Source of the DNA: Neolecta irregularis DAH-3
Lineage: Eukaryota
Length of the DNA: 51,559 bases
Direction of reading: 5' to 3'
Assembly: GCA_001929475.1 (NCBI GenBank)
Contig: LXFE01002711.1
Location: forward strand, 1 to 51,559
Within the stretch, counting starts at the first letter, position 1; every line of letters begins with the position of its first letter. Shown one piece after another: positions 11,118 to 51,221 of this stretch. Made by a program: the position numbers and the translations under genes. The notes beneath the pieces are model-generated. The model made no database searches, had not been told where the DNA came from, and saw only the letters and a list, made by a program, of their open reading frames with translations.

Positions 11118-12311
11118 ATGAAATTGCGGGCAAGGCATTCAAAAGGCATAGATACGCTTACTTTGCCCGACGATGCAACCGTTGCCGATTTGCTGGGTGC
11201 TATAATGTCTGTAGCGGGATCAACAGACTTTTTTGTTAAAGCAGGATACCCGCCAAAAACCATCGATGTCAGCAATGAATCGAGACAACTCGCTTCTCTG
11301 GGAATTAGACATGGAGAACAGATGATACTGGCTGAAATTCCATCTTCTACGCCCAGTGCACCTGAATTGTCAAACTCCACTAGTCAAGTAAAGCCTTTGG
11401 GCAAGCCGACCCTGAAAAAGTCCTACAGAGACCAGGACAATATGCCTCCTGAAATGGCTTTGCCAGGTATAGATTGCAATATCTGCGACATTCATTGACG
11501 ATATTCAAGATGGCCAATACCTCACTGTTCGAATTATGCCTGATGACAATTCTTGCCTGTTTAGATCCGTTTCTTACACACTTATGCCTGCTCTCGATAC
11601 CATGCATGAACTTCGTTCGCGTATTCAAATTCCATGCTTCAATCCAGCTAATGATCTGTCGTTGCCAATGTCATTCAACAGAATCCGGCAGAATTCAGCG
11701 ACGCTATACTGGGGATACCACGAGCCCGGTATTGTGAACATATCAAAAGTGATAATTCATGGGGTGGTGCTATTGAACTAGCAATCTTTGCAAGACACTT
11801 CGGCATTGAAATATGCTCTGTGGACGTTGCAACAGGAAGAATCGACCGATTTGAGTGTAATGATGTTCAGAATATTTTCTACTCACACTTCAGCTGATGG
11901 AGCAACCCAGCAATGCTATATCCTATACTCGGGCATCCATTACGGTAAAGAATGTTTCTCTTATCTGCTAATCTCAGATGCTATTGCGCTGTCGCCAATG
12001 CAAGGTGGACCTTCTGAATTCGACCAGACAGTGTTCCCTAAATCTCAAGAAGAGCTTATTCAATCTTATGCGTTGAAATTAGCCGAGGAGTTACGTAAGC
12101 GACATTATTACACGGATACAGCGAATTTTTCAGTGTGTCCATCAGTATTTCCATGTGATTTGCTGATATCTAGTTGCGTTGCAATGACTGTGGAATTGGC
12201 TTAAAAGGGCAGGTAAATGAAGCAACCTTACCTTTTCAACCTAATCTTTAGACTGAAGCTCAGGAACACGCAAAACAGACAGACCATATCCGATTTGGTG
12301 AATATAATTAG
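11118..12311 (+). CDS. OTU1: Ubiquitin thioesterase Otu1
   Basis: N-terminal UBX-like domain (KAGYPPK); catalytic MPDDNSCLF; WGGAIEL; ILYSGIHY; C-terminal zinc finger ...EAQEHAKQTDHIRFGEYN*. Confidence 0.95.
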
Positions 12312-12368
12312 AGTCTATACTACACAATGATGCCAAACTCAGTACCAAGACGTATAATGCTGTGATAT

Positions 12369-12821
12369 TCATGAAATAATAGCCTCCATCTTAATTTCAG
12401 CTGTGTGACCGAGATTCCCGTTGTCGGTTGACAATCCGATTCCTGCATCTGCCTCTCTTTGGGAATATGGTTCTTCCTGTAGAAGCTTTAATCTGTTGGG
12501 GTAAATTTTTATATCTGAGACTCTATGAACCTTCTTTTGTGAGGGTTCCCTTTCCTGTGTGTCTTTATAGCAGCGTCGGTTTCAAAATATTTTGCGCACG
12601 CAATGCAATAGTACTTTCCTAGTCCCGGAAGATCCTCGTTTAGGGGCTGATTCTCGAGCTTTTCAATCGACCCCGGCACTGTTAAATCCGCGTGGATCTG
12701 ATCCAAGTCTTGACAGGTCAGCGCTCCCTACCATAAACCGACCTTTTGCATAGTTGCGTACTCTGTACCTTGGATCGTTCCTTGCACTGTGATGCCTTCT
12801 TTTATGCCGGATTCTGCCCAT
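12369..12821 (-). CDS. BUD20: C2H2 zinc-finger ribosome biogenesis factor Bud20/ZNF593
   Basis: DLDQIHADL...EDLPGLGKYYCIACAKYF...HRKGNPHKRR|LKLLQEEPYSQREA. Confidence 0.95.
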
Positions 12822-13007
12822 GGAAATTTTCGATGAGACCCGATTCGTGACAAGGATTTTCGACACCTCGGGAAATCATCACGTGGGTTCTATAATTCCC
12901 AGCCGCCAGGCTTATGTAGACAGGTTCGTTGCGCATCAATACGCTTATTGATGATATCGTGATAGTTCAGTAGCAAATTGGAGATATAAAGTTTACGGCA
13001 CAACCGC

Positions 13008-14625
13008 ATGGCGGCAAGGCCAGGGCATTCTGTGCTTTCTTCTCAAGAAATCGCGAAGGAAGCGGCCAACTTTGCATTTCCTGATGGCAAGTCGCTGGAT
13101 TTGTGGTTGAATACAGCGAATTTATTGTATAGACAAGTTTGCATTTTTCTTGAATGAGTTTGACCGTAGGCGATTGTAAGTATTGGGAAAGGCGACAATA
13201 GGACTGCCTACGAGTATGGGATGAGATATGCCGAGTACGCATTCATTGATAGAGCTGTCTAACCCTCAAGTATAGTTATAAATAGAATCGGAAAACATCC
13301 AGATTATAGCGACACGTCTATAAGGCCAAAATTAAAAAGGATGCTCAAGGTAAGTACGACATTAAACTCTTCTTCAATCCTTTAGGCTGTCGAGAAATTG
13401 CTTGATCTCCTGGAACCAGTAAGAACAGCAATCGATAATGAATATAATTCTTTCCTCGAGAATGAGCGACTCCTTGAGGCACACAAAGCTGAATTGGATC
13501 GTCAGTCAGCGTTCCGTCATAGATCAAAGTCAAGTTTGGATAGTATCAACGAACCCTCTACAAGGCAAGCATGGGATATTGTCAAGGAAATGCAAGGTCT
13601 TATAATTCAACAGGTAAAAATGAAACGAGAAGCTGAAGTGCAGGAGCAGAAGTTCTCTTACCCGCAAATATCGCAGTCTTCCTCAAGGTAGAGTATATTC
13701 TCGACTACCCTACTGAGATACAGTGATGTCAAGAGCCAAGACATTGGCTCTCCGTCACGTTCCGTTCATTCTGTAGGACCAAGGCCAGTCCCAACGACGC
13801 AAACCCTCCCTGAAAGACCCACGAAAGAAATATTAGCCGACTCAATAGCAGAGATATCGTCGCCTCGTCCAGTCTTGAAGGATGCTTCAATCGAAGATGG
13901 AGTTCCACCGGTTGAGGATATACAAATTTTGGATCGACAATTTGCATGTAGAGGTATGCAAGAGTTCCTATAATATTTGCCAACCTGAAAGCATTTCTCG
14001 AATCTGGGGAACCTCTTCGATCTATGTTTGTCCCTAGTGAACTTCGAACCCGTTTCCTTGAGATTGCCTCCTATAATACAGCGCGTAATCTTGAGACTTG
14101 TGGAGTCTTGTGCGGACTTCTTGTATGAATTCCACGACATCAACGCTTCTAAATCCAAAAAAAAGAAAAACAACGCTTTCCATGCCAATATGTTAGTGAT
14201 TCCAGCTCAGGAGTCTACTAGTGATACTTGCGCAACAACTGATGAAGAAACTTTATTCGAATTTCAAGAGAGGCGAGACCTTCTGACACTTGGCTGGATT
14301 CATGTTTGATGATTTTCTCGAATCTACTGACGGATAGACACATCCAAGTCAAACTTGCTTCCTGTCGTCTGTTGACTTACATACCCACTGTTCTTATCAG
14401 CTGATGCTCCCAGAAGCAATTGCAATTGTCTGTGCCCCTAAACATAAGCCAGACTGGGGTGCTTTTCGATTGACCGGTCCACCAGGCATGCATATTATCA
14501 AGAATTGCAGAGCTCGAAGTCTCTTTCATCAACATGATGGTGGCCCAATATACTGTGATGCGATGTATCCTGGCCATGTGCGGGAGGTGCCTGGGATGAA
14601 GTTTGAATGGATTGATTTACGGTAA
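13008..14625 (+). CDS. sst2: AMSH-like JAMM deubiquitinase (S. pombe sst2-like)
   Basis: N-terminal MIT/USP8-dimerisation-like region; LVIPAQESTSDTC; JAMM motif LGWIH|THPSQTCFLSSVDLHTH; LPEAIAIVCAP. Confidence 0.92.
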
Positions 14626-14688: not shown

Positions 14689-15999
14689 TCATTGATGACC
14701 TTTCTTTGAGACCACCGAATCTGAGAATCCTGTCATCCCGCCTTCTTGGCTTATAATAGACAATATTTTCTCGCGAGAAACCAACTGCCGTCGTTGTCGT
14801 CCAATGATTGCTATGTTTCGTGTGCTTGGGATCCGCAGGTATTCCTTTTCAATCTCCCAACCAGCCCTCTCAGCCAATGAGCATATCCAGTTGGTAAACC
14901 CAGCATATTTACTCTGTCCGGTCCACGGTCCTGAATATTTGGAACCGTCTAGCGAATATGCGCAACAAGGAATGGATATGAACTGGCCGTCCGGACAGAG
15001 TGCCGCTATTAGCGGAACCCAAGGTGCCAATTGGTCGGCGTGATTACCGATGAAGAAGGTTCCTGGCGGGAAAGAATCTTCGAGGGGTAAAATTAATTTC
15101 TGACGATGATCCCCGGGATAGACATCCCATGACTTTCTTCGACGAAAGTCAACACCGTATCCCTCGTAGCCTTCGCGTTGGAGTATGTGTACCAAAAGAC
15201 CGTTCCCACATCCTAAATCAACCCATGTGGCTTTAGTATCACCCCATAATGTAATCAAGAATGCCGCAATTCCAAGATCTTCGAATACGTGCTTGGTAGG
15301 ATCTGTTTTTTCAACCCATCTGGAACAAATTTCTTTCCCATACTTGATTTTAAGTCCCTGGTATTTGTCTTGGTAAACCTCCCTAGGAACGACAAGGTCA
15401 TGGTGGAATTTCTTGATGTATCCTGCTTCTGTACTGACACAAAACTTGTGTAAAACCCGAAGTAGTTGATAACACGTCCGTTCTGTTTTCGCTGGTATTT
15501 CTTCCACTGGTAGAATGTGCAGAGAAACAGTCTCGCCATCATAGAGATAAGCAATCCCTTTGACATTCGGATGGTAAAATGGGATAGCATCTCCATGAGG
15601 CTCTAGAATAACCAGTCTTTCTGCATTGCCGGCTTTTGTAAAGACAGTGCATGTCTGGTCAAGAGAACGGTCCACTATGGGATTTCGAGGGATAAATCGT
15701 CTCACAGTAAGGTTTTTGATACTCCACCCATTAATTTGTATTTTGGTTAGATAGGTGATGTCGTCCAGGATATCTGCACGAAGAATATTTGTCGAGTTTC
15801 GTTCCGGGTGCCTTGATAATAGGTCTATTACTCGATCAAACACTTCAATCGGATAGTTTGCTATGTGCTGCAGCATAGGAACCCATTCTGAATCTCCAAA
15901 TGGGCTTGTCGCGTTTGGACCATAAGAACGTGGTTCAAACCCGATGGTTGTCTCTAACATGAGCTTGAAGAATAGAGCACACGTTTTGAGGTTTGCCAT
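14689..15999 (-). CDS. TRM44: tRNA(Ser) Um44 2'-O-methyltransferase (intronless)
   Basis: ILRADI; RRFIPRNP..DRSLDQTC; IPFYHP; WVEKTDPTKHVFEDLGIAAFL; VDLGCGNGLL; IGNHADQL; LRIPSTRN. Start could be 15999 or 15960. Confidence 0.95.
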   Translation of the reverse strand: MANLKTCALFFKLMLETTIGFEPRSYGPNATSPFGDSEWVPMLQHIANYPIEVFDRVIDLLSRHPERNSTNILRADILDDITYLTKIQINGWSIKNLTVRRFIPRNPIVDRSLDQTCTVFTKAGNAERLVILEPHGDAIPFYHPNVKGIAYLYDGETVSLHILPVEEIPAKTERTCYQLLRVLHKFCVSTEAGYIKKFHHDLVVPREVYQDKYQGLKIKYGKEICSRWVEKTDPTKHVFEDLGIAAFLITLWGDTKATWVDLGCGNGLLVHILQREGYEGYGVDFRRRKSWDVYPGDHRQKLILPLEDSFPPGTFFIGNHADQLAPWVPLIAALCPDGQFISIPCCAYSLDGSKYSGPWTGQSKYAGFTNWICSLAERAGWEIEKEYLRIPSTRNIAIIGRQRRQLVSREKILSIISQEGGMTGFSDSVVSKKGHQ

Positions 16000-16045
16000 T
16001 CTACAAACCAATATTTGTTTAATCAGTACACCAATAATACATGAA

Positions 16046-16540
16046 CTACCATTTAGCGCCATCACCCGCTATCTTCCATGTTGAAATCATACAGTCTGGC
16101 ACCCCATCCACAGCTGTATCGCTTCCATCGGGTGCAGAAGACTTTCTTTTTCCGCTCGACCTTTGTTTCTTTTTAAATCCTGGAGCTGAAGCAATTATTG
16201 GCTCTTTCCGCTCTTTTGGTTCAATTTTGACTGGCTCCATCACCAGTCGATGTTTTGTTGTTCCCACAATTGTTCCTTCTTCCCCAATGCGCTCAATAAA
16301 TATATCAGTTCCCACTGATTCTGCCCATTTGCCTTGATAAAAGAAGCCGCCAACTCGCAGAATAGGATTGGGCGACTCATTGAGACCGATCAAAGAAAAG
16401 TCGCGTACGTCCGAGAGCTTTGGTGCATTTGGGCCGAGATCTACTGTAATATAGAATGTTTCTTCCTCGTAATCCAGGTCTAGTCCTTGCTGCCCAAGTT
16501 TCCCTGGAGAAGGACCCGAACTACTTGGGGATATATCCAT
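16046..16540 (-). CDS. TFIIIC subunit 6 (tau55/Sfc7-type) domain protein
   Basis: EEETFYITVDLG...LIGLNESPNPILRVGGFFYQGKWAESVGTDIF resembles the TFIIIC_sub6 domain. Confidence 0.75.
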   Translation of the reverse strand: MDISPSSSGPSPGKLGQQGLDLDYEEETFYITVDLGPNAPKLSDVRDFSLIGLNESPNPILRVGGFFYQGKWAESVGTDIFIERIGEEGTIVGTTKHRLVMEPVKIEPKERKEPIIASAPGFKKKQRSSGKRKSSAPDGSDTAVDGVPDCMISTWKIAGDGAKW

Positions 16541-16657
16541 CAAATACTTGGTGGTGATTCAATGTCTGCTCTAAACATCTCGAAACTCCGTCCTTCTTTC
16601 TTTCTTCTATTGGTCAACCGAGTCATTTTTGTAACCCTCAGACCAGTCGATCCAACA

Positions 16658-19245: not shown

Positions 19246-20345
19246 ATGTTGTCCATTGGTCTTGTAGTCTCATTTCTTGTCTTCTTGGCTGTCATTGGTC
19301 AGGCTCAGCCTACAAGTATGTGTTCTTCCGAGACATCAATTGACAACTTTAGACCAGCTCAGAAACCACCAGCAAGCAAAACGAGATTATGCTCATAGTG
19401 TTGTAAGTATGATTTCATTGTTCCGTCGTAATATTGTCAAAGCCTTCTTACAATCCGGCTGAGCCCATGGGGATCGCCTATTCGCCATATCAGGACGACG
19501 GAAGCTGCAAGAACCTCGACCAGGTAGTGTCTGATCTTCGACGGATCAATTCAGATGGATACCAAATTCTTAGAATGCAGGTCTTTCTGCTACTAATAGT
19601 GCTGATAATGCAGTTACGGCATTGATTGCAACCAAGTATGGATTGTTCACACAGCAATATTGAGCATCCCTAACAATAATCTCCGATTATTTCTCGGCAT
19701 CTTTGATATCTCCGATGTTTACGGCTCAGTACAAACAATCATTCGCGCTGTTAACTATGATTTTTCCAAAATTGTCACCGTTTCCGTCGGAAATGAGCTT
19801 GTCAACAACGGTATTAAAACCCCGACTGACGTCATCAATGCCATTGGAGAAGCTCGTAATCTATTGAGAGCAGCAGGATATGCTGGACCAGTCGTGACTG
19901 TGGATACATTTGTGGCACTAAAAGCACATGTCGAGCTTTGCTATGCTTCTGGTTTGTTCGATACAGCCAAAACTACTGTATTGATTGACTAGATTACGTT
20001 GCTGCTAATATCCATCCTTTCTTTGACGGACAAGTCTATCCAGAAAATTCCGGGGAGTGGGTCAGGAACCAGGTGAATGACCTAGCTGCTGCTTGCAACA
20101 ACTGGAACGTCCTCGTCACTGGTATGTTTGTTTTATGGACTAGAATTGATTCGGCAGAAACCGGGTGGCCTACCGCTGGCAACACTGTTGGCGTCTCTGT
20201 CCCTTCTATTCAGAACCAAGAGACTGCCCTTCGCTCGATTTCCAGAACATTAAATAACGGCTTTGTCAGCTTCAGCGCTTTCAATGATCTTTGGAAGGCT
20301 CCTGGACCGTTTAATTGTGAGAAGAGCTGGGGTCTCCTACGATAA
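19246..20345 (+). CDS. Secreted GH17 beta-1,3-glucanase/glucanosyltransferase (Scw4/Scw10/Scw11 family)
   Basis: Signal peptide MLSIGLVVSFLVFLAVIGQA; possible Kex2 site AKR; GIAYSPY..DGSCK; VSVGNELV; VVTVDTF; ANIHPFFD; ETGWPT; FSAFNDLWK. Confidence 0.92.
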
Positions 20346-23009: not shown

Positions 23010-23258
23010 GCGTTTGTACGTTCGCCTTTCTATTATATTGATTTATTCCTCCGGAGTGATTGGCCCTTTTTGTTTTTGTAATTTCTCGGTTCAAGTGGTA
23101 TGGAATGAATTCTGATTCTTCTATTTCTGAATACCTGTTTTCCTCGGGGCTTGTGGTATCCAGGAAGAGTGGTCTTTCGGCCCTTTGTTCTTTTCAATGG
23201 ACTGACAAAAGTCAGACAACAAAACATTGCAAAGATGTGTGCCAAGCAAGACACGTCC

Positions 23259-23272: not shown

Positions 23273-23370
23273 ATATGCGCTCCCCCTTTGGTACGCCACC
23301 GAAATACCGCGCTTCTTAAAATCTCCTTCCGCCATTGCTCGGTCCACTCCAATTTGTGTTCCCACTCATA

Positions 23371-28200: not shown

Positions 28201-28378
28201 CAGGGTAATGACCACATACACCTCTCTCAAACAGCCTGATGGTTGAGGAATCTTTCTGGGGCAGGTTCCTGTAAAAGGAGATAAAGCCCGCAGCATCGTC
28301 TGCTCATGTCAGTAAACCCCCATAGTGTTGCTATGCACCCAATACCAGATCTGGACGATCGTCCTTCTTTACAGCCAT
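25251..28378 (-). CDS. MSH2: DNA mismatch repair protein Msh2
   Basis: [78 protein letters not shown]. Confidence 0.97.
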
Positions 28379-35995: not shown

Positions 35996-36660
35996 ATGAT
36001 GGATGTCTCAGGTATAAAGTCTGTAGACCTATTTGGTGGTGCAATTGTAACCAAAATCCCATCCAGTTTTATCGATGGAAGGTATACTTGATTCATAAGG
36101 CACTTTACATCTCATAGTGTGTTTCGTCAGACTCCTGATAACCAAGAAGTTTATGTCGATCTAAAAGAAGGTTCAGATCTGAGCTTGATCATTGAGATTC
36201 TCGAACGAGAGGCCTGTTCTGATGAAGAGTCAGCTATCGTTCATTTTAATGCCATAGCGTATGATAACGACGTCCCTGAAGGTTCCATGAGAGTACTGTC
36301 GAATGAACTTGTTTCAACAGAGACTGTGCCAAATCTCAAGTATTGGCTTCTTCAAAGGAGTACTCATTTTAAAGCTCCCATGTTGTCTACTTATTATCGG
36401 GTATACAAGAGGCATACAAATGGGGACGAAAGACTGTGCTTCCACCTGGACAAACTTCGATAGTAGTGGTTATTGTAGCCGTGATACGACTTACCGCGCA
36501 GGCTACAGACTTGGTGATCAGTTTGAATGTGCCGGTAATTTTACAAACGAGTTCTTTAACGACTATTATGAAAGATTCCGAGATTGTTTGTATTGCCCTA
36601 AAAAAAGTCGAAGAGGTCCTAAAAGCGCTCACAATTCAAGATTACAGTCTCTTTAGCTGA
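35996..36660 (+). CDS. MOG1: Ran guanine-nucleotide release factor Mog1
   Basis: LFGGAI...IP..FID; RQTPDNQEVY; SLIIEILE; IRL....TDLVISLNVP; IQDYSLF. Confidence 0.92.
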
Positions 36661-39744: not shown

Positions 39745-40072
39745 GCGCATTCTTCTTTGCACCCGCGAACTTACCAACCACCGCCACTCCACCCCCTACC
39801 CTGCCCGTCATCGTCCCATATCATTCCATTTCACTCTTCCCCTATTCAATCACTCGTTATCCCGCCGTCCGTCACAAAAACCTGCCGCACTCCCGCTTCA
39901 TTTCTTCCCCTTCAGGGGTTCATATAGATTGCTCTTCAGTATGTGCAAGTTTCTTTTTCTGTTCGGTTTCCCGTCTCCGGAGTGTTGTTTTGCAAACATT
40001 TTTTTTACCTTCTCTCCATAATTGGACCCTATTGCTAACCCCTGCGAGTCTTGCTGCTTTCCGTGAGCCGAG

Positions 40073-43000
40073 ATGTCTCACCGGCAAAACCAATATCACG
40101 ATGATCCCTATGCGCAGCAGCAACAGGGTGGCCACCCGCAAGAACAATACTATGACGATTATCCGCAGGATGGTAATCAGCCTGGCGGATACGCGGCCCA
40201 TGGCCAATACAATCAACAACATGAATCTTACTATGACGATCAGGGAGGAGAGGCATATTACGACAACCAGCAACGCAGAACCTATGGATCTGATGCTGAC
40301 TACTACCGACAAGAAGGCTACGAAGACTACCCTGTAGATGCTTATCCGGCAAATGATTCCTACGGTATGCTTTTTCCGCCAAATCTTTTCATTTCTCACT
40401 CAAGTAGGACCTGGACCTGCTGGTGGTCACCAACCTATGCAGTACTTCCAGGGGCAAGCTGGCCAGCGAGGAAACGCTCCCCGCGGCGTGAGGCGAGGAT
40501 CTTCCGAAGAAGATTCTGAAACCTTTTCTGATTTTACCATGCGGTCAGATATGGCTCGTGCTGCCGAAATGGATCTCTACGGCCGTGGAGACGAGCGATA
40601 CAACAACTATGGTCAGTCTACCGATGACTTATCTCAGGTGACGGGGAACAATCGTGGCTATCGGCCACCTTCTTCGCAGGTCTCGTATAATAATCGGTCT
40701 TCTGGTGCTTCAACTCCTGTATATGGTTTGGAATATGGGAATGAAGCTGCTGGAGTTCGTTCTCGAGAGCCATTCCCCGCATGGTCGTCCGATAATCAAG
40801 TGCCTGTTTCCAAAGAAGAAATTGAAGACATCTTCATTGACCTAGCGAACAAGTTTGGATTTCAACGGGATAGCATGAGGAACATGTACGATTTTCTTAT
40901 GACCCTTCTCGACTCGCGAGCGTCTCGCATGACTCCCAATCAAGCTCTTCTTTCACTTCATGCGGACTATATTGGAGGCGATAATGCCAATTATCGAAAA
41001 TGGTATTTTGCCGCCCAACTCGATCTCGATGACGCTGTTGGTTTTGCAAATATGAAACTCGGTACAAAGTCAAAACGAAAAGCAAAGAAAAATAAGAATG
41101 CCGCTAATCCCCAAGACGTCGCTCGAAAACTCGAAGAACTTGAAGGGGATAATAGTCTTGAAGCTGCCGAATATCGATGGAAGTCAAAGATGAACCAAAT
41201 GACACAACACGAACGAACTCGCCAACTTGCCCTTTGGTTGCTTTGCTGGGGTGAAGCCAACCAGAGTCGATTCTGCCCAGAATTGATGTGTTTCTTATTT
41301 AAATGCGCCTACGATTATCTCGTATCGCCGGAATGTCAAAATCTCGTCAGTCCTGTTCCGGAGGGTAAGTATCTCAACGAGATCATCACTCCGTTGTACC
41401 AGTTCATGCGCGATCAAGGCTATGAGATTATCGGCGGGAAATATGTTCGTCGCGAAATAGATCATGCCAAGATCATTGGGTATGATGACATCAATCAGCT
41501 CTTCTGGTATCCGGCCGGTATCGCTAGAATAGTGCTCAAAGATAAAACTCCCCTGGTCGATATACCTCCGGCACAACGATGGAATAAGCTTGTTGACGTC
41601 GAGTGGAAAAAAGTCTTTTTCAAAACGTATTATGAAACTCGGTCATGGTTTCATATGTTCACCAACTTCAATCGTATCTGGGTCATTCATATTGTCGTCT
41701 ACTGGTTCTATACCGCCTTCAATTCACCTACTCTCTATACGAAGAATTACAATCAGCGTCAAAACAATCAACCTCCTGGCTCTTATAAATGGTCCTCGGT
41801 TGCTCTTGGTGGTGTTGTTGGATGTCTTCTTATGCTATTGGCAACCTGTGCCGAGTGGGCTTATGTCCCTCGTCGATGGGCTGGTTCTCAGCATCTCTCG
41901 AAACGGTTCTTTCTATTGTTGATAGCACTCGTTGTCAACGCAGCTCCTGGTGTATTCGTTTTTATGGTCGCAAAGGATCCAAAATCCAGCATTGCTCTCA
42001 TTGTCGGTATAGCTCACTTCTTCCTTGCGTTGGGGACCACCTTGTTGTTCGCATTAGTGCCTCTCGGAGGGTTATTTGGCAATTATCTCCAGCAGAACCG
42101 ACGAACATATGTTGCTAGCCAAACGTTCACTGCGAGTTGGGCTAGTCTTGAGGGTAACAATAAATGGATGTCCTATGGCCTCTGGGTGCTCGTTTTCACA
42201 TGTAAAATGGTAGAATCGTACTTCTTCCTTACCCTATCGTTTCGAGATCCTATTCGAGTGCTCAGCACAATGACTGTTCAAAACTGTCAGGATAAGATTC
42301 TTGGAACCATGTTTTGTTCTCGGCAACCTCAAATCGTTCTCCTCCTTATGTATATCACCGATCTCGTCCTCTTCTTCTTGGATACCTATCTTTGGTATAT
42401 TATCTGGAATACAATATTTTCGGTCGCTAGGTCATTTTATCTCGGTATCTCAATCTGGACTCCATGGCGGAACATTTTCTCTCGCCTTCCGAAACGTATA
42501 TATTCGAAAGTCCTTGCAACCAACGACATGGAAATTAAGTACAAGCCAAAAGTCCTTATATCACAGGTTTGGAACGCAATCGTTATTTCCATGTACAGAG
42601 AACATCTTTTGTCTATTGATCATGTCCAAAAATTGCTCTATCATCAGGTATCATTTGGTACCTCGCATATAGCTTATGATACAGGTTCCTTCTGAACAAG
42701 AAGGCAAGCGAACCCTTCGAGCACCTACTTTCTTTGTTTCACAGGAAGACCATTCGTTCGAGACCGAGTTTTTTCCCGCGGGTAGCGAAGCGGAACGTCG
42801 CATTTCTTTCTTTGCTCAGTCGCTTTCAACACCTATTCCAGAACCGCTACCTGTCGACAACATGCCAACTTTCACCGTCTTCATCCCCCATTATGGTGAG
42901 AAGATTCTTTTGTCGTTGCGTGAAATCATTCGAGAAGACGATCAGCTATCGCGTGTTACTCTCTTGGAATACCTCAAACAGCTCCATCCTGTTGAATGGG

Positions 43001-46000
43001 AATGTTTCGTAAAGGACACCAAAGTTCTCGCCGAAGAAACAGCAATGTTTAACGGCGGAAATTCACCTTTCGAGAAGGATGAAAAGGAAACAGTTAAAAC
43101 TAAAATCGACGATCTTCCATTCTATTGTATCGGTTTCAAGTCAGCCGCTCCCGAGTATACTCTTCGAACTCGTATTTGGGCTTCGCTTCGATCACAGACG
43201 CTCTATCGCACAATATCTGGATTCATGAATTATGCACGAGCTATTAAGTTATTATACCGAGTTGAGAACCCGGAGGTCGTTCAGATGTTTGGCGGTAATA
43301 CGGATAAGTTGGATAGAGAACTTGAACGGATGGCTAGACGAAAATTTAAGTTATGTGTTTCTATGCAACGATACACCAAATTCAACAAGGAAGAACAAGA
43401 GAACACTGAATTTATTCTCCGCGCTTACCCGGACCTTCTTATATCCTATCTCGATGAAGAACCTCCAGTCAATGAAGGGGAAGAACCTCGAATTTTCTCG
43501 GCTTTAATTGATGGACACTCGGAAATAATGGAAGATGGTCGAAGACGGCCCAAGTTCCGAATTCAGCTTTCCGGAAACCCCATTCTCGGAGATGGAAAGA
43601 GCGATAATCAGAACCACGCCATCATTTTTTATCGGGGCGAATATATTCAACTTATTGATGCCAATCAAGACAATTATCTGGAAGAATGTCTCAAAATTAG
43701 ATCCGTTCTCGCCGAGTTCGAAGAAATGACAACAGAAAATGTTTCGCCCTATGCACCTGGTCATACAACTCAAAACAAGAACCCTATTGCTATTCTCGGT
43801 GCTCGTGAATACATCTTTTCCGAGAACATGGGAGTGCTCGGTGATGTCGCTGCTGGAAAAGAACAAACATTCGGTACTCTCTTCGCTCGTACATTATCTC
43901 TCATTGGCGGGAAACTTCACTATGGTCATCCAGATTTCCTTAATGGTATCTTTATGACAACTCGTGGTGGTGTCTCGAAAGCCCAAAAAGGTCTCCACCT
44001 CAATGAAGATATTTATGCCGGTATGACCGCGTTCCTTCGGGGTGGCCGAATCAAACATTGTGAATATTACCAGTGTGGTAAGGGTCGCGATTTGGGATTT
44101 GGTTCTATCTTAAATTTCACGACGAAGATTGGAACTGGTATGGGAGAACAAATGTTATCTCGTGAATACTATTACATCGGTACCCAACTTCCTCTCGATC
44201 GCTTCCTTTCGTTCTACTACGCGCATCCCGGTTTCCACGTCAATAATTTGTTCATCATGTTATCGGTACAAATGTTCATGTTTGTCATGATCAATCTTGG
44301 AGCTCTTCGTCACGAACTCCCAGCTTGTGACTACAATCCGAATGTCCCTATTACCGACAAACTCAAACCTGATGGTTGTTACAACCTGGAACCAATTCTT
44401 GGATGGGTTGCTCGATGTATCTTATCTATTTTCATTGTTTTCTTCATCTCTTTCGTACCTTTGGTTGTCCAAGAATTGACCGAACGAGGATTTTGGAGAG
44501 CTGCTACTCGTCTTGGGAAACATTTCGGATCATTATCTCCGTTATTCGAAGTGTTCGTTGCACAGATTTACGCTAATTCATTGCTAAACAACTTGGCCTT
44601 TGGAGGTGCCCGATATATCGGTACCGGTCGAGGTTTTGCAACTACTCGAATTCCCTTCGCTATTTTGTATTCTCGGTTTGCTGGACCATCCATTTATCTC
44701 GGTTCTCGAACGGTGTTTATGCTTCTGTTTGGTACAATGACAATTTGGATGCCTCATTTGATCTATTTCTGGATCACTATCCTCGCACTTTGCATTTCAC
44801 CATTTATCTACAACCCGCATCAATTCGCTTGGACTGACTTTTTTGTGGATTACAGAGAATTTATTCGATGGATGTCTCGAGGTAACAGTCTAGCTCACGC
44901 CAATTCGTGGATCGGATACTGTCGATTGTCTAGAACAAGAATCACGGGTTACAAGCGCAAAGCCCTCGGAAAACCGTCTGAGAAGCTTTCCGGAGATATT
45001 CCTCGAGCTTCCATTACCAATATGTTCTTCAGTGAAATCGTTGGACCATTCATTATTGTATTGATTACTATTGCTCCTTTCGCATTCATCAACGCTCAGA
45101 GTGGATTTATTGGACAAACCGGTGTCACCCCTTCTAGTTCTCTCATCAGGATTGGTCTCATTTCGTTTGCACCGGTCCTTCTCAACACTGCAATACTTCT
45201 CGGATTGTTTTGTATGGCTTGTTGCATGGGCCCGATTCTCTCCATCTGTTGCAAGAAATTCGGCTCAGTCCTCGCAGCCATTGCTCACACATGGGCCGTT
45301 CTAAATCTCCTCATCATATTCGTGGCTCTTTGGCTACTTGAGTCTTGGTCTCTGCTAAAAACTATACTTGGTATCATAGCTATGACGGCTATCCAACGAT
45401 GGTTCTTCAAACTGCTTACTGCTACGATATTGACCCGAGAATTCAAACACGATGAATCCAACAGAGCTTGGTGGTATGTATTTTTTACCTCGCTGTTTCT
45501 AATTTCCCTAGGACTGGTAAATGGTATGGTACTGGACTTGGTGCACACGCAATCTCTCAACCGGCTCGGGAGTTTGTCTGCAAGATCATTGAACTTAGTA
45601 TGTTTGCTACAGACTTTTTACTTGCGCACACTTTATTATTCGTCATGTTGCCTCTGCTATGCATTCCATACTGCGATAGATGGCATTCGGTCAGCTTGTT
45701 CTGGCTTCGACCAAGTCGGCAAATTCGCCCACCGATATTCTCTCTCAAACAAAATCGTCTTCGAAAGAGAATCGTTCGACGCTATTCTACGCTTTACTTT
45801 ATTCTCCTGGTAGTTTTTGTTGGAATCATTGCCGGGCCGCTTGTCATTAAGAAGCAATTGGGTGAGTCATTCCCAGTTTCCTCAATCGCAGGCTGACATT
45901 TTTAGTCGCAATGGACCTCGGAAGCAAGATTCCATCTGGCTTCGGCTTGGCTCAGCCTACTAACGCCTTGATGAATGCCACTGTTGTCACAGATACAGCT

Positions 46001-46027
46001 CTGCCAGCTACGACCAGCACGGCATGA
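40073..46027 (+). CDS. FKS1: 1,3-beta-glucan synthase catalytic subunit (GT48)
   Basis: [115 protein letters not shown]; last short exon ends at TGA 46027. Confidence 0.99.
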
Positions 46028-46464: not shown

Positions 46465-47846
46465 ATGGGACGAAAGAAAATACAGGCATGCATTCTATCG
46501 CCATCGTTCACTTATCGTTATAGATTAGGAAAATCGGCGACCCCAAGACGAAATCAGTATGCATGAGATCATCAGACCGATAAAGTTAACGAACCAAGGT
46601 TACATTCACTCGACGGCGAAATGGTTTACTCAAGAAAGCCTATGAAATCTCGGTTTTGTGCGATACTCGGGTCGTCATATTGATGTTTGATCAGAAGGAC
46701 GCGTGCCATGTGGTACCGTTTGATCGTAAACATTCAAGTACTGACAAAGAATAGTACTCCACGATCAACGAGGAGAACAGTGCTGTTGATATGATGAACA
46801 TGTATATCAATAAAAGCTTCATTACGACAGATCCTCGACGTAATTTTGAGATTCCTTCAAACTTGACACCGGAACTGAAGTATTGCTCTGTCATCTTCAA
46901 ACTGCAGACTGACATTTCAAGCGGTGGTTTGCGAACCTGTCCTAACAAGAACCCCATTGCTATTGTTAACACGTATGAGGTCGTCCCTGCTCCATTAGAT
47001 GGTGAACAACAAATCGATGACTGCGATCTCGATGGATCAGAGCAGCTTCGCGTTCTTTCAAATCGTTTATACCATTCAGTTTCTGTAGGCTTGCCGGGAA
47101 TCAATTTGATTACACCAGCGTTAACTCATGATGGGGACACATTTTCTCCGAGACTTTCCTCTACAGGCTTTCCAACCCCAGAGTTAAATAATATGGCAGC
47201 AGATGATCCTGCTGGCCTCGGAATATTATCAGAGAACTTGATGTCAAACTTCAATGCACCACGACCACGTTCTACCTCGCCGCGAATGCACTCACCACAG
47301 ATGATGGGGCAGTCACAAAGAACCTGGAAGAAGCCAGTGGTAATGCAACCGAATGCAATGCGACAATCTCTTTCAGCCAGGTCAGATCACTTCCATCAAG
47401 CACAACCTCTAGCTCAAGCAGTTGACCGATCAGCTAAATTCGGAACCTCCCTTGGTCAGAATGTCAGGAGCCCCCTGGTTCAAGATCACAGAATATCAGC
47501 AACTGAAGATCCTAATGTAGATAGGAGCATGATGGATGTGAATTTTGATAGCTACTCTATAGGAAATCGACCATATATTACAGCTGCTATGGATGTATCA
47601 AATCCGGCCGTATACTCCACTGATTTCTTCGACGAACCACTTTCATCCGACTTTCACTTACAGCAAGTGGCTGGTCAGAGGAGATTGGCGGGCGACCGAG
47701 TTACTATTGAAGAACCTTGCTACGAATATTCTCATTATGGAAACATATTCACAAATGATACTGCGCAAGGAATGGGAGAGAATTGGTTGGTAGAGTCACC
47801 GGATACTAATCACTCGGTGGTAGACCAAGGGATGGCATGGATGTAG
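46465..47846 (+). CDS. mbx1: MEF2-type MADS-box transcription factor, Mbx1-like (exons 46465-46485, 46524-46556, 46599-46712, 46755-47846)
   Basis: Spliced [59 protein letters not shown]...[11 protein letters not shown]. The ACHVYS and NK.F.T.DP motifs recall S. pombe Mbx1. Confidence 0.88.
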
Positions 47847-48009
47847 TGGGTCTTTATGTAAGATATTCGTGTTCGCTGGCTGGTTCGGGTGTAACAGTTA
47901 CAATGCATTTTATACAATTGTTTGAGCTTGAAACGGTTGGGTTAACAATTCTGCAATTTAAAGTCGAGATGAGACAGTAGATTTTCTCCTTCTATCCCAA
48001 TATGCACAT

Positions 48010-48498
48010 CTAAGCAGTCAAAGCCTTAGCGGCTACATTTGGATTGATCTTCTTTCCATCTTTGTTGTATCGAACACGTGGCGGGGGAATACGACTTCTT
48101 CGAGCCGTTACAGAACGAACTCTGTCAATGATCAATAATCGAAACAAGAGTCCAGCCTACCGGACGACGTGAGAGTGAACTGCACAAGAAATGCACCAAA
48201 CACTAGACCCATCAGCCGCTATGTCAATTTAAAGATTGGGCGTACATTTTAAGGTAAAGCTTGGGCAAAACATATTCCTGATAAACGCTGGCTTCTGAAA
48301 GGTCTCGAACAGCCGCGGCTTCGACAATATTTCGAACCGAAAATCGCTTAACGGCTTTGTCCTAAATTGGGTTCAGGACATATATTTCTTTGGTCAAAAT
48401 ACTTTTGGAACGCATCGCGAGCAGTTGTTGCATCTAACAGGCTTTACGTGACCTCTGCCTGTCTTGTTTCGTCCGTTGTTTCGCCGTTTGACAGACAT
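48010..48498 (-). CDS. RPS26: 40S ribosomal protein S26 (eS26)
   Basis: [55 protein letters not shown]...[15 protein letters not shown]. Confidence 0.98.
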
Positions 48499-49100
48499 GC
48501 TAAATCGGGAGTGTTTAGACTTCGATTTTGGTGGTTGTCCTGCGGAAAACGCAGTCGGGGCATAATTAATGTGTATTGTCGACACATAATTAGCAGTCAT
48601 TCTGCCCGAGACATTCCGCAGGATAACCTCCACAATTTTCATCTCTTAGAAGCTATCTTTAGGATTCTGTGACCAATTTGTCCGTTCCAACCATCATCTC
48701 ACCAGAAGTTTCAAGAATATCTGGATGATCTCGTCTGCTGAATCTGAAATATGCTTGGCTGAGAGTTTATTCATGGATGAGGCTTGTCGGTTCTTTGGAG
48801 ATTCCATGCGCTACGGTAGAGGCTTCCTTCAGACCGCTTTCGCAGACCTCAATTGTCCCAGGAGCCCCGACCGTTCATTTACGTGTTTCCTCTAGTTAGC
48901 CTATGGTCTAAAACCTGCTTTCGTTAAAGCTATCATAGATAAATATAATCAGGTTATCTACTCTATTCAATACTTTCATGAATATATCCGAGCCTGAACC
49001 CAAAAGATGGATGAGAAAGCGTGCAAGTAGAGCCGATGGAAAACGCCTACTCAAGTCTCTGACCTCATCTAAACATCAACATTCTCCACCCAGCAAGAGA

Positions 49101-51221
49101 ATGTCGACAGTCTCTTATCAGAAGAGAAAACCTCAGCAACCTCTCCCAAATTCCTCATCTCAAATTCCAGTGAGGGAAGGGACAGCTTCGTTCCCGACTA
49201 CTCCTGATGTTAGCGACCAACGTAAGCGTCAAAGCAAGAAAGATGAGGTATAGATACATATCCTATGCTCGCTTCCATGGTAATTGTTTATAGGCCATTA
49301 GAAGACGTCTTGAAGGGGAGCTGAACAAGAAGCGAGGAACTCCCAACACTCGAACTCGTTCCCACAAGAAACATGCCGCGGGAACAGTCATGGCTCTTCG
49401 ACCGTCTCCGCCATTGACGATCAAACCTGATCTGACGGTTGCCGAAGCTTCCCAAATAATGGCTGCTCGTCGCGAAGACTGTGTTCTTGTTATTGATGAT
49501 GAATCTCATCTCACCGGTATCTTCACAGCTAAGGATCTTGCATTCCGAGTCGTTGGCGCCGGCATCGATGCTCGGGACGTTACAATTGCTCAGATCATGA
49601 CTCCAAATCCCATGTGCGCTCGTCAAAGTACGTCAGCCACGGAGGCCTTGGATCTTATGGTCAAGCGAGGCTTTCGGCATTTAGTATATGTTACTGAAAT
49701 AATGCATTCTAATAAATAGCCCGTCTGTGATGAGGATGGCGATGTTTTGGGTGTTCTCGATATTACAAAGTGTTTCTATGAAGCCATGGAGAAGGTTGGC
49801 TTCCTATTGGAATATACACTAAGAATAGCTCGAACGGGCCTATGCCTCCTCTCGAAAACTCCACGATGCACTTGAAGGTGTCCAATCCGAATGGGGATCA
49901 TCACAGCAACCCATTCAAATCATGCAATACGTTGATGCTCTCAAACAAAAAATGTCAGGTCCTGATTTGTCGACTGTCCTTGATGGATCCATGCCAACAA
50001 TGGTCTCAGTTCGTACCTCTGTCCGAGAAGCGGCTGCCTTGATGAAAGAAAACCACACTACAGCTGTACTCGTTATGGATCAGAATAGCATTGCGGGTAT
50101 ATTCACTAGCAAAGACGTCGTCTTGCGGGTTATTGCCCCTGGACTGGATCCTGGAAACTGCAGCGTGGTCAGAGTGATGACTCCACATCCCGACATTGCC
50201 CCACTAGATTTAAGCATCTCAGCTGCCCTACGTAAGATGAATGGTACCTTTATAACTTTGATCTCATTAACCATATAGATGGCCACTATCTCAACCTCCC
50301 CGTTATGGATCACAATAAAGAAGTTATCGGCATTGTCGACGTTCTCAAGCTTACCTATGCTACCCTCGAACAGGTGGGGGCTCCCCTTTTAGGTTTTGTC
50401 CTGACAACCAGATTAACTCAATACAAGCCAATGATGGGGAAGGTCCCATGTGGAATAAATTTTGGAATTCGCTGGGAGACGGAGACACTGAATCTGCCCT
50501 CTCTGACGGTCAATCGGCAGCTCATCGGGCGGCCTCAGAACTTGCGGCAGGACGTGCCAGCTCTCCGCTTATATCACCAATACCTCAACTGCAAGACACG
50601 GCAATGGGTCAATCTGTATATCCTAACGATTCTGCATCACATTATCATCCCGATGATGGCTCAAACCTTGAAATCTCTCAGGAGTTACCGTTTGCCTTCA
50701 AATTTAAATCTCCAAAAGGCAAGGTCCATCGACTTCAGTTCAATGTCCGAGATGGTCTGAATGGGTTACGTTCAGTTATCTCAGAAAAACTCGGCCACGA
50801 AATTGAAGAAGTTGGGGGTCATTCAGTATTTGCCGTTAGTTATACCGACGACGAAGGCGATATTGTAGCCATTGAATCAGACCACGATTTTACTTTCGCG
50901 GTAGACCTAGCACGTCGTTTAGGACAGCAGAAAATCGATTTGTTCATCCACCATCCTAGCAAAGAAGTGCAATCTACGTCCGTGGCATCTCAAAGTGCTG
51001 TTGCTGTCGTTTCATCTACACCTACCGCGGAACTAGGCGATCTCCCCCAGACGGAATCAACAGCCACGAAAAAATCCGAAGAAAGATTGCCACCAATCGT
51101 ACAACCTACGCAACAAATTCCTGGAATACCGAATGAGCTGTTGTTGCCTGGTGCTGTAATTACACTCGCCATTGCCGTTGTTGGAGTGGCTATCATAAGC
51201 TTTGCTAGGAGGAGCAAGTAG
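49101..51221 (+). CDS. mug70: CBS-CBS/PB1 domain protein with C-terminal transmembrane helix (Mug70-like)
   Basis: RKRQSKKDE|AIRRRLE; CBS repeats (GIFTAKDLAFRVV, GIFTSKDVVLRVI); FAFKFKSPKG; PB1 OPCA motif YTDDEGDIV; C-terminal hydrophobic helix. An upstream in-frame ATG at 48978 is possible. Confidence 0.88.

What the first reader, a model, noticed from the sequence alone, without database searches (positions are those of the whole stretch)
11118..51221. One block appears to join the neighbourhoods of all four fission-yeast glucan synthases: a candidate ancestral bgs/FKS locus
Seen in sequence: a single FKS1 lies in a 40-kb block with OTU1, BUD20, AMSH/sst2, GAS, MSH2, FCP1, MOG1, SprT-HMG, mbx1 and mug70. 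Recalled S. pombe systematic IDs (from memory, to be verified): bgs1 SPBC19G7.05c is near msh2 (.01c), the SprT/HMG gene (.04) and mbx1 (.06); bgs2 SPAC24C9.07c is near mug70 (.05c) and otu1 (.14); bgs3 SPAC19B12.03 is near gas1 (.02c), fcp1 (.05c), sst2 (.10) and bud20 (.11c); bgs4 SPCC1840.02c is next to mog1 (.01c). Inference: this window preserves the pre-duplication Taphrinomycotina locus, and the four bgs genes arose by segmental duplication with reciprocal gene loss, or by tandem expansion followed by breakage at the bgs copies.
Basis: partly seen in the sequence, partly recalled or inferred. Interest (0 to 1): 0.85.

Follow-up and report, generated by a model that had tools for sequence, protein, structure and literature searches.

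The report
Ancestral fungal glucan-synthase gene neighbourhood
This Neolecta contig holds one beta-glucan synthase gene among neighbours that stay linked to it across many fungi but lie beside four separate glucan-synthase copies in fission yeast, which suggests that fission yeast copied the whole block and then lost different genes from each copy.

Summary
The window is a whole 51,559-bp contig of Neolecta irregularis DAH-3. So are six genes it did not mention. Papers' main text confirmed 9 of the 14 recalled S. pombe identifiers. Published coordinates also put SPBC19G7.04 6.6 kb from bgs1. The ids of bgs3, fcp1, otu1 and mug70 could not be checked.

New evidence: 80 unnamed fungal metagenome contigs carrying FKS were examined. 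GAS, GCNA, MOG1, BUD20, OTU1, eIF2A, GH17 and the mug70-like gene each lie within 10 kb of FKS in at least one other lineage. The block is therefore older than Taphrinomycotina.

In that ancestral order MOG1, GCNA and GAS sit in a row on one side of a single FKS. In S. pombe each abuts a different bgs gene. This fits block duplication with reciprocal loss better than tandem copies followed by breakage.

Not done: a tree containing bgs1-3, and a count of FKS genes in Neolecta. I found no prior description.

The parts
11085..12201 (+). OTU1-type deubiquitinase gene, several exons
   Evidence: OTU1_UBXL 2.1e-16 and OTU 0.0035 on ORF pieces
12512..12875 (-). BUD20/ZNF593-like zinc-finger gene
   Evidence: Translation read. 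zf-C2H2_jaz 1.4e-10. tblastn hits to BUD20-like ORFs in L008, L046, L058, L063 and L079.
13386..14622 (+). AMSH/Sst2-like JAB deubiquitinase gene
   Evidence: JAB 1.3e-4. Best PDB match 'AMSH-like protease sst2', 1.7e-16.
14692..16068 (-).
   Evidence: AdoMet_MTase 2e-37
16049..16558 (-).
   Evidence: TFIIIC_sub6 5.2e-14
   Evidence: eIF2A 2.1e-17 and 2e-54 on two exons. An eIF2A gene lies upstream of FKS in L046 and L079.
19609..20342 (+).
   Evidence: Glyco_hydro_17 3.8e-5, below Pfam's cut-off. tblastn at 48-55% identity to a gene 4-9 kb downstream of FKS in 11 loci.
21372..23038 (+). GAS/GH72 glucanosyltransferase gene a, with X8 domain
   Evidence: Glyco_hydro_72 on three exons plus X8 2.1e-27
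23320..24959 (+). GAS/GH72 glucanosyltransferase gene b, with X8 domain, in tandem with gene a
   Evidence: Glyco_hydro_72 2.9e-74 plus X8 6.3e-26. Of the two GAS genes, this one is usually the closer to the FKS-adjacent GAS in other fungi.
25254..28523 (-). MSH2 gene
   Evidence: MutS domains I, III, IV and V. Human MSH2 2.6e-82 against 1.7e-10 for the next MutS.
29307..32691 (+).
   Evidence: PH, GRAM, Glyco_transf_28 and UDPGT domains
33002..35766 (+). FCP1 CTD phosphatase gene
   Evidence: NIF 1.1e-19 and BRCT 0.002. PDB 3ef1 'RNA polymerase II subunit A C-terminal domain phosphatase', 1.5e-47.
36092..36657 (+). MOG1 gene
   Evidence: Mog1 2.3e-15
36760..38548 (-). GCNA-like gene: SprT domain, SprT zinc ribbon and an HMG-like C-terminus split by an intron
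   Evidence: SprT-like 1.6e-14 and Zn_ribbon_SprT 5.4e-8. The HMG-like stretch was read by eye and Pfam did not match it on the exon pieces. tblastn to the SprT gene upstream of GAS-FKS in 18 loci.
40073..46024 (+). FKS/GT48 beta-1,3-glucan synthase gene. Five exons with introns of 37-41 nt at 40367-40406, 42648-42684, 45475-45512 and 45861-45901.
   Evidence: FKS1_dom1, FKS1_dom2 and Glucan_synthase 1384 bits. P0001 at 100% identity, 1930 aa. Intron read. S. cerevisiae FKS1/GSC2 structures at E = 0.
46465..47843 (+). MADS-box transcription factor gene, MEF2-like N-terminus, with the box split by introns
   Evidence: Translation read. SRF-TF 8.7e-16 on exon 46590-46751. The 363-aa C-terminal ORF has no Pfam match.
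48352..51221 (+). CBS-CBS-PB1 gene (mug70-like)
   Evidence: CBS 2.7e-18 and 3.1e-10, PB1 3.9e-11. A homologue at 62% identity starts 1.06 kb after FKS in L002.

Best explanation
The window is a complete Neolecta irregularis contig. Its canonical FKS/GT48 gene sits in an old, widely conserved fungal neighbourhood. The core of that neighbourhood is ...BUD20/OTU1/eIF2A ... MOG1-GCNA-GAS<->FKS ... GH17 / mug70-like. Neolecta additionally keeps AMSH, MSH2, FCP1 and a MADS gene there.

In the Schizosaccharomyces stem lineage this whole block was copied at least twice, not just the synthase gene. That produced four copies. Each single-copy neighbour then survived in only one copy (reciprocal loss), while the synthase survived in all four as bgs1-4.

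What is shown: the Neolecta gene content; FKS linkage of 8 of the 15 neighbour families in other fungi; and the S. pombe positions of msh2, GCNA, mbx1, mog1, gas1, sst2 and the BUD20 orthologue.

What is inferred: the duplication itself, its extent (about 17 genes) and its timing.

For the GAS-FKS head-to-head pair, the likely reason for its persistence is a shared intergenic control region that couples glucan synthesis with glucan remodelling. This is inference and was not tested.
For: (1) Gene content of the window.

(2) Ancestral state. 80 metagenome FKS loci were fetched. They were classed by their best-scoring named FKS as 66 Pezizomycotina-like, 8 Saccharomycotina-like, 5 Basidiomycota-like and 1 Mortierellomycota-like. 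Counts among loci with enough flank:
- GAS: 21 of 25 Pez-like loci with >=6 kb upstream, always head-to-head with FKS.
- GCNA: 17 of 24.
- MOG1: 12 of 23 (Pfam Mog1 1.6e-27 on one representative).
- BUD20: 3 of 21 Pez-like and 2 of 6 Sacch-like.
- GH17: 9 of 19 downstream.
- BUD20-OTU1-eIF2A-FKS in L046 and L079, Pfam-confirmed.
- The mug70-like gene next to FKS in L002, whose FKS falls outside the Pezizomycotina crown.
- The GAS-FKS head-to-head pair also in the Mortierello-like L055.

(3) S. pombe positions.

(4) Pattern. MOG1, GCNA and GAS are consecutive on one side of a single FKS in the outgroups. In S. pombe, mog1/bgs4 have consecutive ids. GCNA and bgs1 are 6.6 kb apart. gas1 is .02c, next to the recalled bgs3 .03. 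bgs1 has neighbours from both ancestral sides: GCNA and msh2 on one, mbx1 on the other.

(5) Chance: P from 7e-5 to 3e-15.

(6) A second paralogue pair. rps3002 is SPBC19G7.03c, beside bgs1. rps3001 is recalled as SPAC19B12.04, beside bgs3. No RPS30 motif was found in the window or in any of the 80 loci.

(7) Other lineages have fewer copies or group apart. The Taphrina M11 preprint reports a single FKS. A published tree legend places Schizosaccharomycetales enzymes in their own group and Neolectales elsewhere.
Against: - The ids of bgs3, fcp1, otu1, mug70 and rps3001 are recalled only. The whole bgs2 link rests on two of them.
- Orthology of GAS (S. pombe has several gas genes), the MADS gene and the CBS-PB1 gene is shown only at family level. 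No S. pombe sequence other than Bgs4 could be fetched.
- Five of the 15 families in the block have no known bgs-linked S. pombe counterpart, and I did not locate their orthologues.
- AMSH, FCP1, MSH2, the MADS gene, the PF07757 methyltransferase, TFIIIC_sub6 and the sterol glucosyltransferase were found next to FKS in 0 of 80 other loci. Flanks were at most 10 kb. Their place in the ancestral block therefore rests on Neolecta plus S. pombe alone.
- Gene orientations differ between Neolecta and S. pombe. For example, GCNA and FKS are divergent here but convergent by the ids and coordinates.
- My trees contain only Bgs4, on a long stem of 0.47-0.56, with the base of Ascomycota unresolved. They do not test whether bgs1-4 form one clade.
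- The FKS copy number in Neolecta was not tested.
- Mullis et al. 2019 report no microsynteny between S. pombe ribosomal-protein paralogue regions and cite that no WGD has been detected (passages).
- The metagenome loci are unnamed and several are near-duplicates of one another, so the counts are not independent.
Confidence: 0.65

Rival explanations
1. Only the synthase gene multiplied, by tandem or local copies inside one ancestral block. The block later broke apart at or between the copies, so each piece carried one bgs gene and a contiguous share of the neighbours.
For: Tandem duplication is common, and the window itself has two tandem GAS genes. Small inversions and moves clearly happened, because Neolecta's order differs from the Pezizomycotina-like order: GAS and GH17 lie 15-20 kb upstream of FKS here. 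A different order in the Schizosaccharomyces ancestor cannot be excluded.
Against: Breakage of a tandem array leaves ancestral neighbours only at the two outer copies, and each copy keeps one side only.
- By the ids, all four bgs loci carry ancestral neighbours.
- bgs1 has neighbours from both sides.
- MOG1, GCNA and GAS are consecutive in 12-21 outgroup loci, yet each abuts a different bgs gene.
- Along the Neolecta order, the four locus labels fall in 7 runs rather than 4.
- The rps30 pair beside bgs1 and bgs3 (plus recall) is not explained.
Confidence: 0.15
2. The four synthase copies and their blocks are older than the split between Neolecta and Schizosaccharomyces. Neolecta and the other single-copy lineages lost three whole blocks, so this window matches only one bgs locus.
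For: Saccharomycotina carry an old second FKS type that also lies next to GAS. L059 has FKS, two GAS genes and an importin, and it branches deep in the tree. Old FKS-GAS block copies therefore do exist in fungi.
Against: The neighbours of all four bgs loci are together in Neolecta, and the core ones are together in Pezizomycotina-like and Saccharomycotina-like contigs. Under an old duplication, the reciprocal losses would have had to wait until after all these lineages split. A published tree legend groups the Schizosaccharomycetales enzymes apart. Taphrina M11 is reported to have one FKS.
Confidence: 0.1
3. The match is an artefact of selective recall. The S. pombe genes not verified here lie elsewhere, and what remains is ordinary conserved linkage of a few genes to one or two bgs loci.
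For: 5 of the ids used are unverified.
Against: The verified subset alone links the block to bgs1 (msh2, GCNA, mbx1) and to bgs4 (mog1). It also places gas1, sst2 and the BUD20 orthologue within one cosmid numbering. P <= 7e-5 even for the four strictest cases.
Confidence: 0.05

Closest known systems
[quoted passage not shown] 2004). Both are cited in a passage of PMC6993855; the comparison itself is from my own knowledge.
   Same: One outgroup block maps to several paralogous regions. The single-copy genes are shared out among the copies in an interleaved way, and only a few anchor genes are kept in more than one copy (here bgs, perhaps rps30).
   Different: Here the ratio is 1:4 rather than 1:2. 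Only one block of about 17 genes is known. The outgroup is far more distant, orientations are scrambled, and no genome-wide signal has been reported for fission yeast.
Fourfold paralogons of vertebrates compared with amphioxus (for example PMC7269912, seen only in the search listing)
   Same: Four paralogous regions against one unduplicated region, recognised through an outgroup.
   Different: That signal is chromosome-scale and genome-wide. This is a single 40-kb microsynteny block.
FKS-GAS gene pairs of S. cerevisiae: FKS1 with GAS2, and FKS3 with GAS1 and PSE1. ORF positions are recalled, not checked.
   Same: A glucan synthase next to a GH72 glucanosyltransferase. The Saccharomycotina-like loci L042, L047 and L059 show FKS followed by GAS, and L059 also has an IPO5-type importin.
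   Different: In those yeast-like loci GAS lies downstream in the same direction. In 28 Pezizomycotina-like loci and in L055 it lies upstream, head-to-head. In Neolecta the two GAS genes are 15-19 kb away.
Duplicated ribosomal-protein genes of fission yeasts, attributed to retroposition (Mullis et al. 2019, PMC6993855; passages read)
   Same: Gene duplicates that arose in the ancestor of fission yeasts. rps3002 lies two genes from bgs1.
   Different: That study found no microsynteny between the paralogue regions and proposed gene-by-gene retroposition. The bgs loci suggest that at least one multi-gene block was copied.

Membership tests
[quoted passage not shown] | FKS1_dom1, FKS1_dom2 and the Glucan_synthase domain in one protein of about 1,900 aa | tested here: met
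   Pfam 6.1e-31, 5.4e-75 and 1384 bits. The 1930-aa annotated protein is 100% identical. E = 0 to the S. cerevisiae FKS1/GSC2 structures over 930 aa.
Paralogon made by block duplication with reciprocal gene loss | An unduplicated outgroup block whose genes are shared out among the paralogous regions | tested here: met
   Met for bgs1 (msh2, GCNA, mbx1) and bgs4 (mog1), and for the SPAC19B12 group (gas1, sst2, BUD20 orthologue), with ids or coordinates from papers. The bgs2 link (otu1, mug70) and the ids of bgs3 and fcp1 are recalled only.
Paralogon made by block duplication with reciprocal gene loss | The outgroup arrangement is ancestral, that is, shared by independent lineages | tested here: met
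   8 of 15 neighbour families are FKS-linked in other fungal contigs. 7 of 15 were seen next to FKS in 0 of 80 loci, within flanks of at most 10 kb.
Paralogon made by block duplication with reciprocal gene loss | At least two different paralogue pairs shared by the regions | tested here: inconclusive
   The bgs genes are one set. rps3002 lies beside bgs1, but the position of rps3001 beside bgs3 is recalled only. Mullis et al. report no microsynteny under a criterion of three shared homologues.
Paralogon made by block duplication with reciprocal gene loss | The anchor paralogues form one clade, with the outgroup gene outside it | tested here: inconclusive
   Only Bgs4 was retrievable. The trees leave the base of Ascomycota unresolved. 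A published figure legend groups Schizosaccharomycetales separately from Neolectales.
Paralogon made by block duplication with reciprocal gene loss | The outgroup genome has a single anchor gene | not testable with these tools
   No genome is held for this window. Only one Neolecta protein appears among the best 120 of 1,711 hits, which does not exclude a divergent second copy.
GCNA (SprT protease with HMG box) | SprT domain, SprT zinc ribbon and a C-terminal HMG box | tested here: inconclusive
   SprT-like and Zn_ribbon_SprT are met. The HMG-like stretch was read by eye across an intron and Pfam did not match the downstream HMG-like exon piece (36,760-36,936) when scanned alone.

The most novel reading that the evidence does not exclude
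The four bgs loci are a surviving relic of large-scale duplication in the stem lineage of fission yeasts: two rounds of whole-genome or whole-chromosome duplication. Everywhere else the signal would have been erased by gene loss and rearrangement. This would also account for the simultaneous duplication of about 58 ribosomal-protein families, which Mullis et al. found hard to reconcile with gene-by-gene duplication. One such pair, rps30, lies beside bgs1 and, by recall, beside bgs3.
Probability: 0.12. Interest if true: 0.9.

Novelty: new member of a known kind. Interest (0 to 1): 0.68.

Why it matters
Fission yeast is a main model for cell-wall and septum synthesis, and its four glucan synthases have divided that work between them. 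How they arose has not been described in the papers I could search. Those papers also state that no large duplication is known in this lineage and that there is no long-range collinearity with other Taphrinomycotina.

If a block of about 17 genes was copied to four places, three things follow. It gives a dated, testable origin for bgs1-4. It shows that outgroup-based interleaving analysis can recover old duplications in fission yeast that self-comparison missed. And it makes the old puzzle of the duplicated ribosomal-protein genes directly testable.

Separately, the head-to-head GAS-FKS pair and its companions MOG1, GCNA and GH17 form one of the more durable gene neighbourhoods in fungi. They are a candidate unit of co-regulated glucan synthesis and remodelling around an antifungal drug target.

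Tried and rejected
- Whole genome of the window: not held, so GT48 copies could not be counted.
- Fetching bgs1-4 for a tree:
  - The best 120 of 1,711 hits to the Neolecta N-terminal exon were the Neolecta protein itself plus Pezizomycotina-named or unnamed proteins (two labelled Quercus suber); none was from Schizosaccharomyces.
  - In the 50%-identity library, none of the 10 representatives I had named was from Schizosaccharomyces: 6 carried other fungal names and 4 were unnamed. That is 10 of the 150 listed.
  - A search restricted by length to >=1,953 aa returned two proteins named Bgs4.
  - bgs1-3 were never obtained, and the third protein search was left unused because I saw no query that would bring them into a 120-row list.
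- PDB holds only S. cerevisiae FKS1/GSC2, and nothing for the SprT exon.
- RPS30 motif scans (short motifs recalled by me) found nothing real in the window or the 80 loci.
Linkage of MSH2, FCP1, AMSH and the MADS gene in other fungi at 10-40 kb therefore stays untested.
- Id searches for bgs1, bgs3, fcp1, rps3001, mug70 and otu1 found no main-text occurrence. Supplementary tables, where such ids usually appear, were closed.
- None of the 80 metagenome loci looked like a Schizosaccharomyces bgs locus. The low-GC loci were yeast loci of other types.
- Chimeric assembly of the block was rejected: there is no N inside it.

Full report
WHAT THE WINDOW IS
The best hit of the FKS N-terminal exon is a 1930-aa NCBI protein, 100% identical, named '1,3-beta-glucan synthase component FKS1 [Neolecta irregularis DAH-3]'. 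Its longest contig is 51,559 bp, the length of the window. The window is therefore a whole contig of that early-diverging ascomycete. G+C is 41-47% throughout. The only gap is 10 N at 51,427-51,436, outside the block.

CHECK OF THE OBSERVATION IN THE SEQUENCE
Genes here are split by many very short introns, so I scanned stop-to-stop ORF pieces with Pfam and PDB sequences. From left to right the block contains:
- OTU1.
- A BUD20/ZNF593-like zinc-finger gene on the minus strand.
- An AMSH gene whose best solved relative is S. pombe-type 'AMSH-like protease sst2'.
- A PF07757 methyltransferase, TFIIIC_sub6 and eIF2A.
- A GH17-like gene.
- Two tandem GH72+X8 GAS genes.
- MSH2: human MSH2 at 2.6e-82, next MutS at 1.7e-10.
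- A PH-GRAM-GT28 sterol glucosyltransferase.
- FCP1 and MOG1.
- A SprT plus zinc-ribbon gene with an HMG-like end that I could read only by eye across an intron.
- One FKS gene of five exons.
- A MADS-box gene whose box is split by introns.
- A CBS-CBS-PB1 gene.

It left out six genes that do not fit its story. Upstream of the block lie RPA34, a GRC3/NOL9-type kinase and GAA1.

CHECK OF THE RECALLED S. POMBE POSITIONS
No S. pombe genome was available, so I searched papers for the systematic ids and read the matching passages. Confirmed:
- msh2 = SPBC19G7.01c (PMC6007933).
- rps3002 = SPBC19G7.03c (PMC2691841).
- SPBC19G7.04 = HMG-box protein, the S. pombe GCNA (PMC7218141; bioRxiv 10.1101/570200).
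- mbx1 = SPBC19G7.06.
- bgs2 = SPAC24C9.07c (PMC3016978).
- gas1 = SPAC19B12.02c (PMC12363947).
- sst2 = SPAC19B12.10 (PMC2885615).
- SPAC19B12.11c = the ZNF593 orthologue (PMC5990653).
- mog1 = SPCC1840.01c and bgs4 = SPCC1840.02c (PMC4706557).

Table 1 of PMC7525812 places a SPBC19G7.04 mutation at chromosome II 2,349,593 and the bgs1 D277N mutation at 2,356,243, which is 6.6 kb apart.

The ids of bgs3, fcp1, mug70 and otu1, and of rps3001 (which I added from memory), occur in no main text of the library. Supplements, where they would normally be, were closed.

IS IT MORE THAN CHANCE?
I assumed about 5,100 genes (recalled) and +-10 genes around each of four bgs genes, so a random gene falls in such a zone with p = 0.016. 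For the 15 non-FKS families of the block:
- P(>=4) = 7e-5. This covers msh2, GCNA, mbx1 and mog1, where both the id and the bgs position were verified.
- P(>=7) = 1e-9. This adds gas1, sst2 and the BUD20 orthologue.
- P(>=10) = 3e-15. This adds the three recalled ids.
The test is post hoc. For GAS, the MADS gene and the CBS-PB1 gene, orthology is shown only at family level.

IS THE NEOLECTA ARRANGEMENT ANCESTRAL?
This was the most informative step. A scan of metagenome contigs with an FKS alignment returned 80 fungal loci with up to 10 kb on each side. By their best-scoring named FKS, 66 are Pezizomycotina-like, 8 Saccharomycotina-like, 5 Basidiomycota-like and 1 Mortierellomycota-like. A tree spreads the informative Pezizomycotina-like loci over several classes. 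I searched the flanks with tblastn of the window's ORF pieces, clustered the flank ORFs, and checked representatives with Pfam.

Results among loci with enough flank:
- GAS, head-to-head with FKS 1.9-5.1 kb upstream: 21 of 25 Pezizomycotina-like loci, and also the Mortierello-like L055.
- The SprT/GCNA gene just beyond GAS: 17 of 24.
- MOG1 beside GCNA: 12 of 23.
- BUD20 about 9.5 kb upstream: 3 of 21.
- The GH17-like gene 4-9 kb downstream: 9 of 19.
- In two Saccharomycotina-like loci (L046, L079), BUD20, OTU1 and eIF2A lie in a row just upstream of FKS, each confirmed by Pfam.
- In three other Saccharomycotina-like loci, GAS follows FKS.
- In L002, the mug70-like gene starts 1.06 kb after FKS. 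The FKS of L002 falls outside the Pezizomycotina crown.

Against this, AMSH, FCP1, MSH2, the MADS gene, the methyltransferase, TFIIIC_sub6 and the sterol glucosyltransferase were found in 0 of 80 loci. The basidiomycete-like loci had almost no flank.

The loci are unnamed and several are near-copies of each other (for example L022/L023/L024/L063, L034/L069, L043/L054, L013/L027), so the counts overstate independence.

Even so, 8 of the 15 families are linked to FKS outside Neolecta. The block is therefore not a Neolecta peculiarity, and it is older than Taphrinomycotina. A published whole-genome alignment study found no long-range collinearity between fission yeasts and Neolecta or other Taphrinomycotina (PMC8537764, section 3.5 read in full). 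This block stands out against that background.

WHAT HAPPENED IN FISSION YEAST?
In the outgroup order MOG1, GCNA and GAS are consecutive genes on one side of a single FKS. In S. pombe:
- mog1 and bgs4 have consecutive ids.
- GCNA lies 6.6 kb from bgs1.
- gas1 is .02c in the cosmid where bgs3 is recalled as .03.
- bgs1 has neighbours from both ancestral sides: msh2 and GCNA on one, mbx1 on the other.
- BUD20 and OTU1 are adjacent in the yeast-like loci, but by the ids they lie near bgs3 and bgs2 respectively.

Read along the Neolecta order, the locus labels run 2, 3, 3, (four genes unassigned), 3, 3, 1, (none), 3, 4, 1, FKS, 1, 2. Such interleaving is what duplication of a whole block followed by loss of all but one copy of each dispensable duplicate produces. 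It is the pattern by which yeast sister regions were recognised.

A tandem array of synthase genes that later broke apart would leave ancestral neighbours only at the two outer copies, one side each. To fit the data it would need synthase copies inserted between successive neighbours, plus several fissions.

A second paralogue pair points the same way. rps3002 lies between msh2 and GCNA beside bgs1, and rps3001 is, by recall, the gene after bgs3. RPS30 is absent from the window and from all 80 loci. It would therefore have joined the block in the fission-yeast stem before the copying.

I put block duplication with reciprocal loss at 0.65, local amplification plus breakage at 0.15, an older duplication with wholesale loss elsewhere at 0.10, and artefact of recall at 0.05.

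WHAT I COULD NOT SHOW
The lists of the protein searches are capped at 120-150 rows, and their named rows were mostly slower-evolving Pezizomycotina or other non-Schizosaccharomyces enzymes. Only a length-restricted search brought up two proteins named Bgs4.
- In my trees the Neolecta FKS sits at the base of, or beside, Pezizomycotina. Bgs4 hangs on a long stem of 0.47-0.56 substitutions per site in an unresolved basal Ascomycota polytomy. This says nothing about bgs1-3.
- The literature helps a little. The legend and text of the beta-glucan synthase tree in PMC7389562 put Schizosaccharomycetales in a group of their own, and Neolectales with Taphrinales, Pneumocystidales, Pezizales and Orbiliales (section 4.5 part 1). 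A Taphrina preprint reports a single FKS there against four in S. pombe (passages).
- The number of GT48 genes in Neolecta is untested.

NOVELTY
I ran searches of the open library for:
- Neolecta, glucan synthase and synteny.
- bgs1-4 with duplication or phylogeny.
- Fission yeast with whole-genome duplication and reciprocal gene loss.
- FKS1/GAS1 with conserved synteny or adjacency.
- bgs genes with synteny, paralogue or segmental duplication.
None found a description of this block or of paralogous bgs regions. In one search, every listed paper that names bgs genes has zero occurrences of 'synteny' and of 'segmental duplication'. Subscription papers and supplements were not searched.

Mullis et al. 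2019 (PMC6993855, passages) state that no WGD has been detected in S. pombe. They also state that no microsynteny was found between ribosomal-protein paralogue regions, and that 58 ribosomal-protein families were nevertheless duplicated in the fission-yeast ancestor, which they ascribe to retroposition. The boldest reading my data leave open is that the bgs block is a relic of large-scale duplication in that ancestor. I give it 0.12.

VERDICT
The 'ancestral locus' reading is supported, and the locus is older than proposed. Block duplication is the best but not yet proven origin of bgs1-4. As a kind of thing it is a new example of a known kind, a paralogon recognised through an outgroup. It lies in a lineage where none has been reported, around an antifungal target gene.

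Noticed in passing
window 40367-40406, 42648-42684, 45475-45512, 45861-45901: The four introns of the FKS gene are only 37-41 nt long. Most genes on the contig are cut into many small exons in the same way.
   Followed up: partly
window 8941-10326 (minus strand); protein P0335: GAA1 (GPI transamidase) lies about 30 kb upstream of FKS. A Trametes cinnabarina GT48 gene model of 2357 aa carries a Gaa1 domain (PF04114) as well. This suggests GAA1 is adjacent to FKS in that basidiomycete, so the linkage may be older still.
   Followed up: no
L034:16355-17818 and 17 other loci; proteins P0013, P0290, P0293-P0295, P0325: A class I/II aminotransferase gene sits about 1.5 kb downstream of FKS in 18 loci of the flank-ORF clustering. 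It is fused to FKS in several annotated gene models that carry PF00155. These are probably annotation read-throughs. The gene is absent from the Neolecta block.
   Followed up: partly
L059:9689-25054: A yeast-like locus has a deep-branching FKS, then two GAS genes, then an IPO5/PSE1-type importin. I recall that S. pombe sal3, an importin of this type, is SPCC1840.03, next to bgs4. If so, the importin also belonged to the old block. Not checked.
   Followed up: no
L055:3037-11527: The head-to-head GAS-FKS pair is also present in the one contig whose FKS is Mortierellomycota-like. The pair may predate Dikarya.
   Followed up: partly
L043 and L054, 8121-16677: Two near-identical low-GC yeast loci show alpha/beta hydrolase, FKS and TIM21 with none of the old neighbours. 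This is an FKS copy that has left the ancestral block.
   Followed up: no
window 38900-40070: About 1.2-1.5 kb between the divergent GCNA-like and FKS genes has only unsupported ORFs with no Pfam match. It is probably a shared upstream region. Not analysed for motifs.
   Followed up: no
window 3540-7342: RPA34 (minus strand) and a GRC3/NOL9-type polynucleotide kinase gene (plus strand) lie left of the block. Their S. pombe positions were not examined.
   Followed up: no
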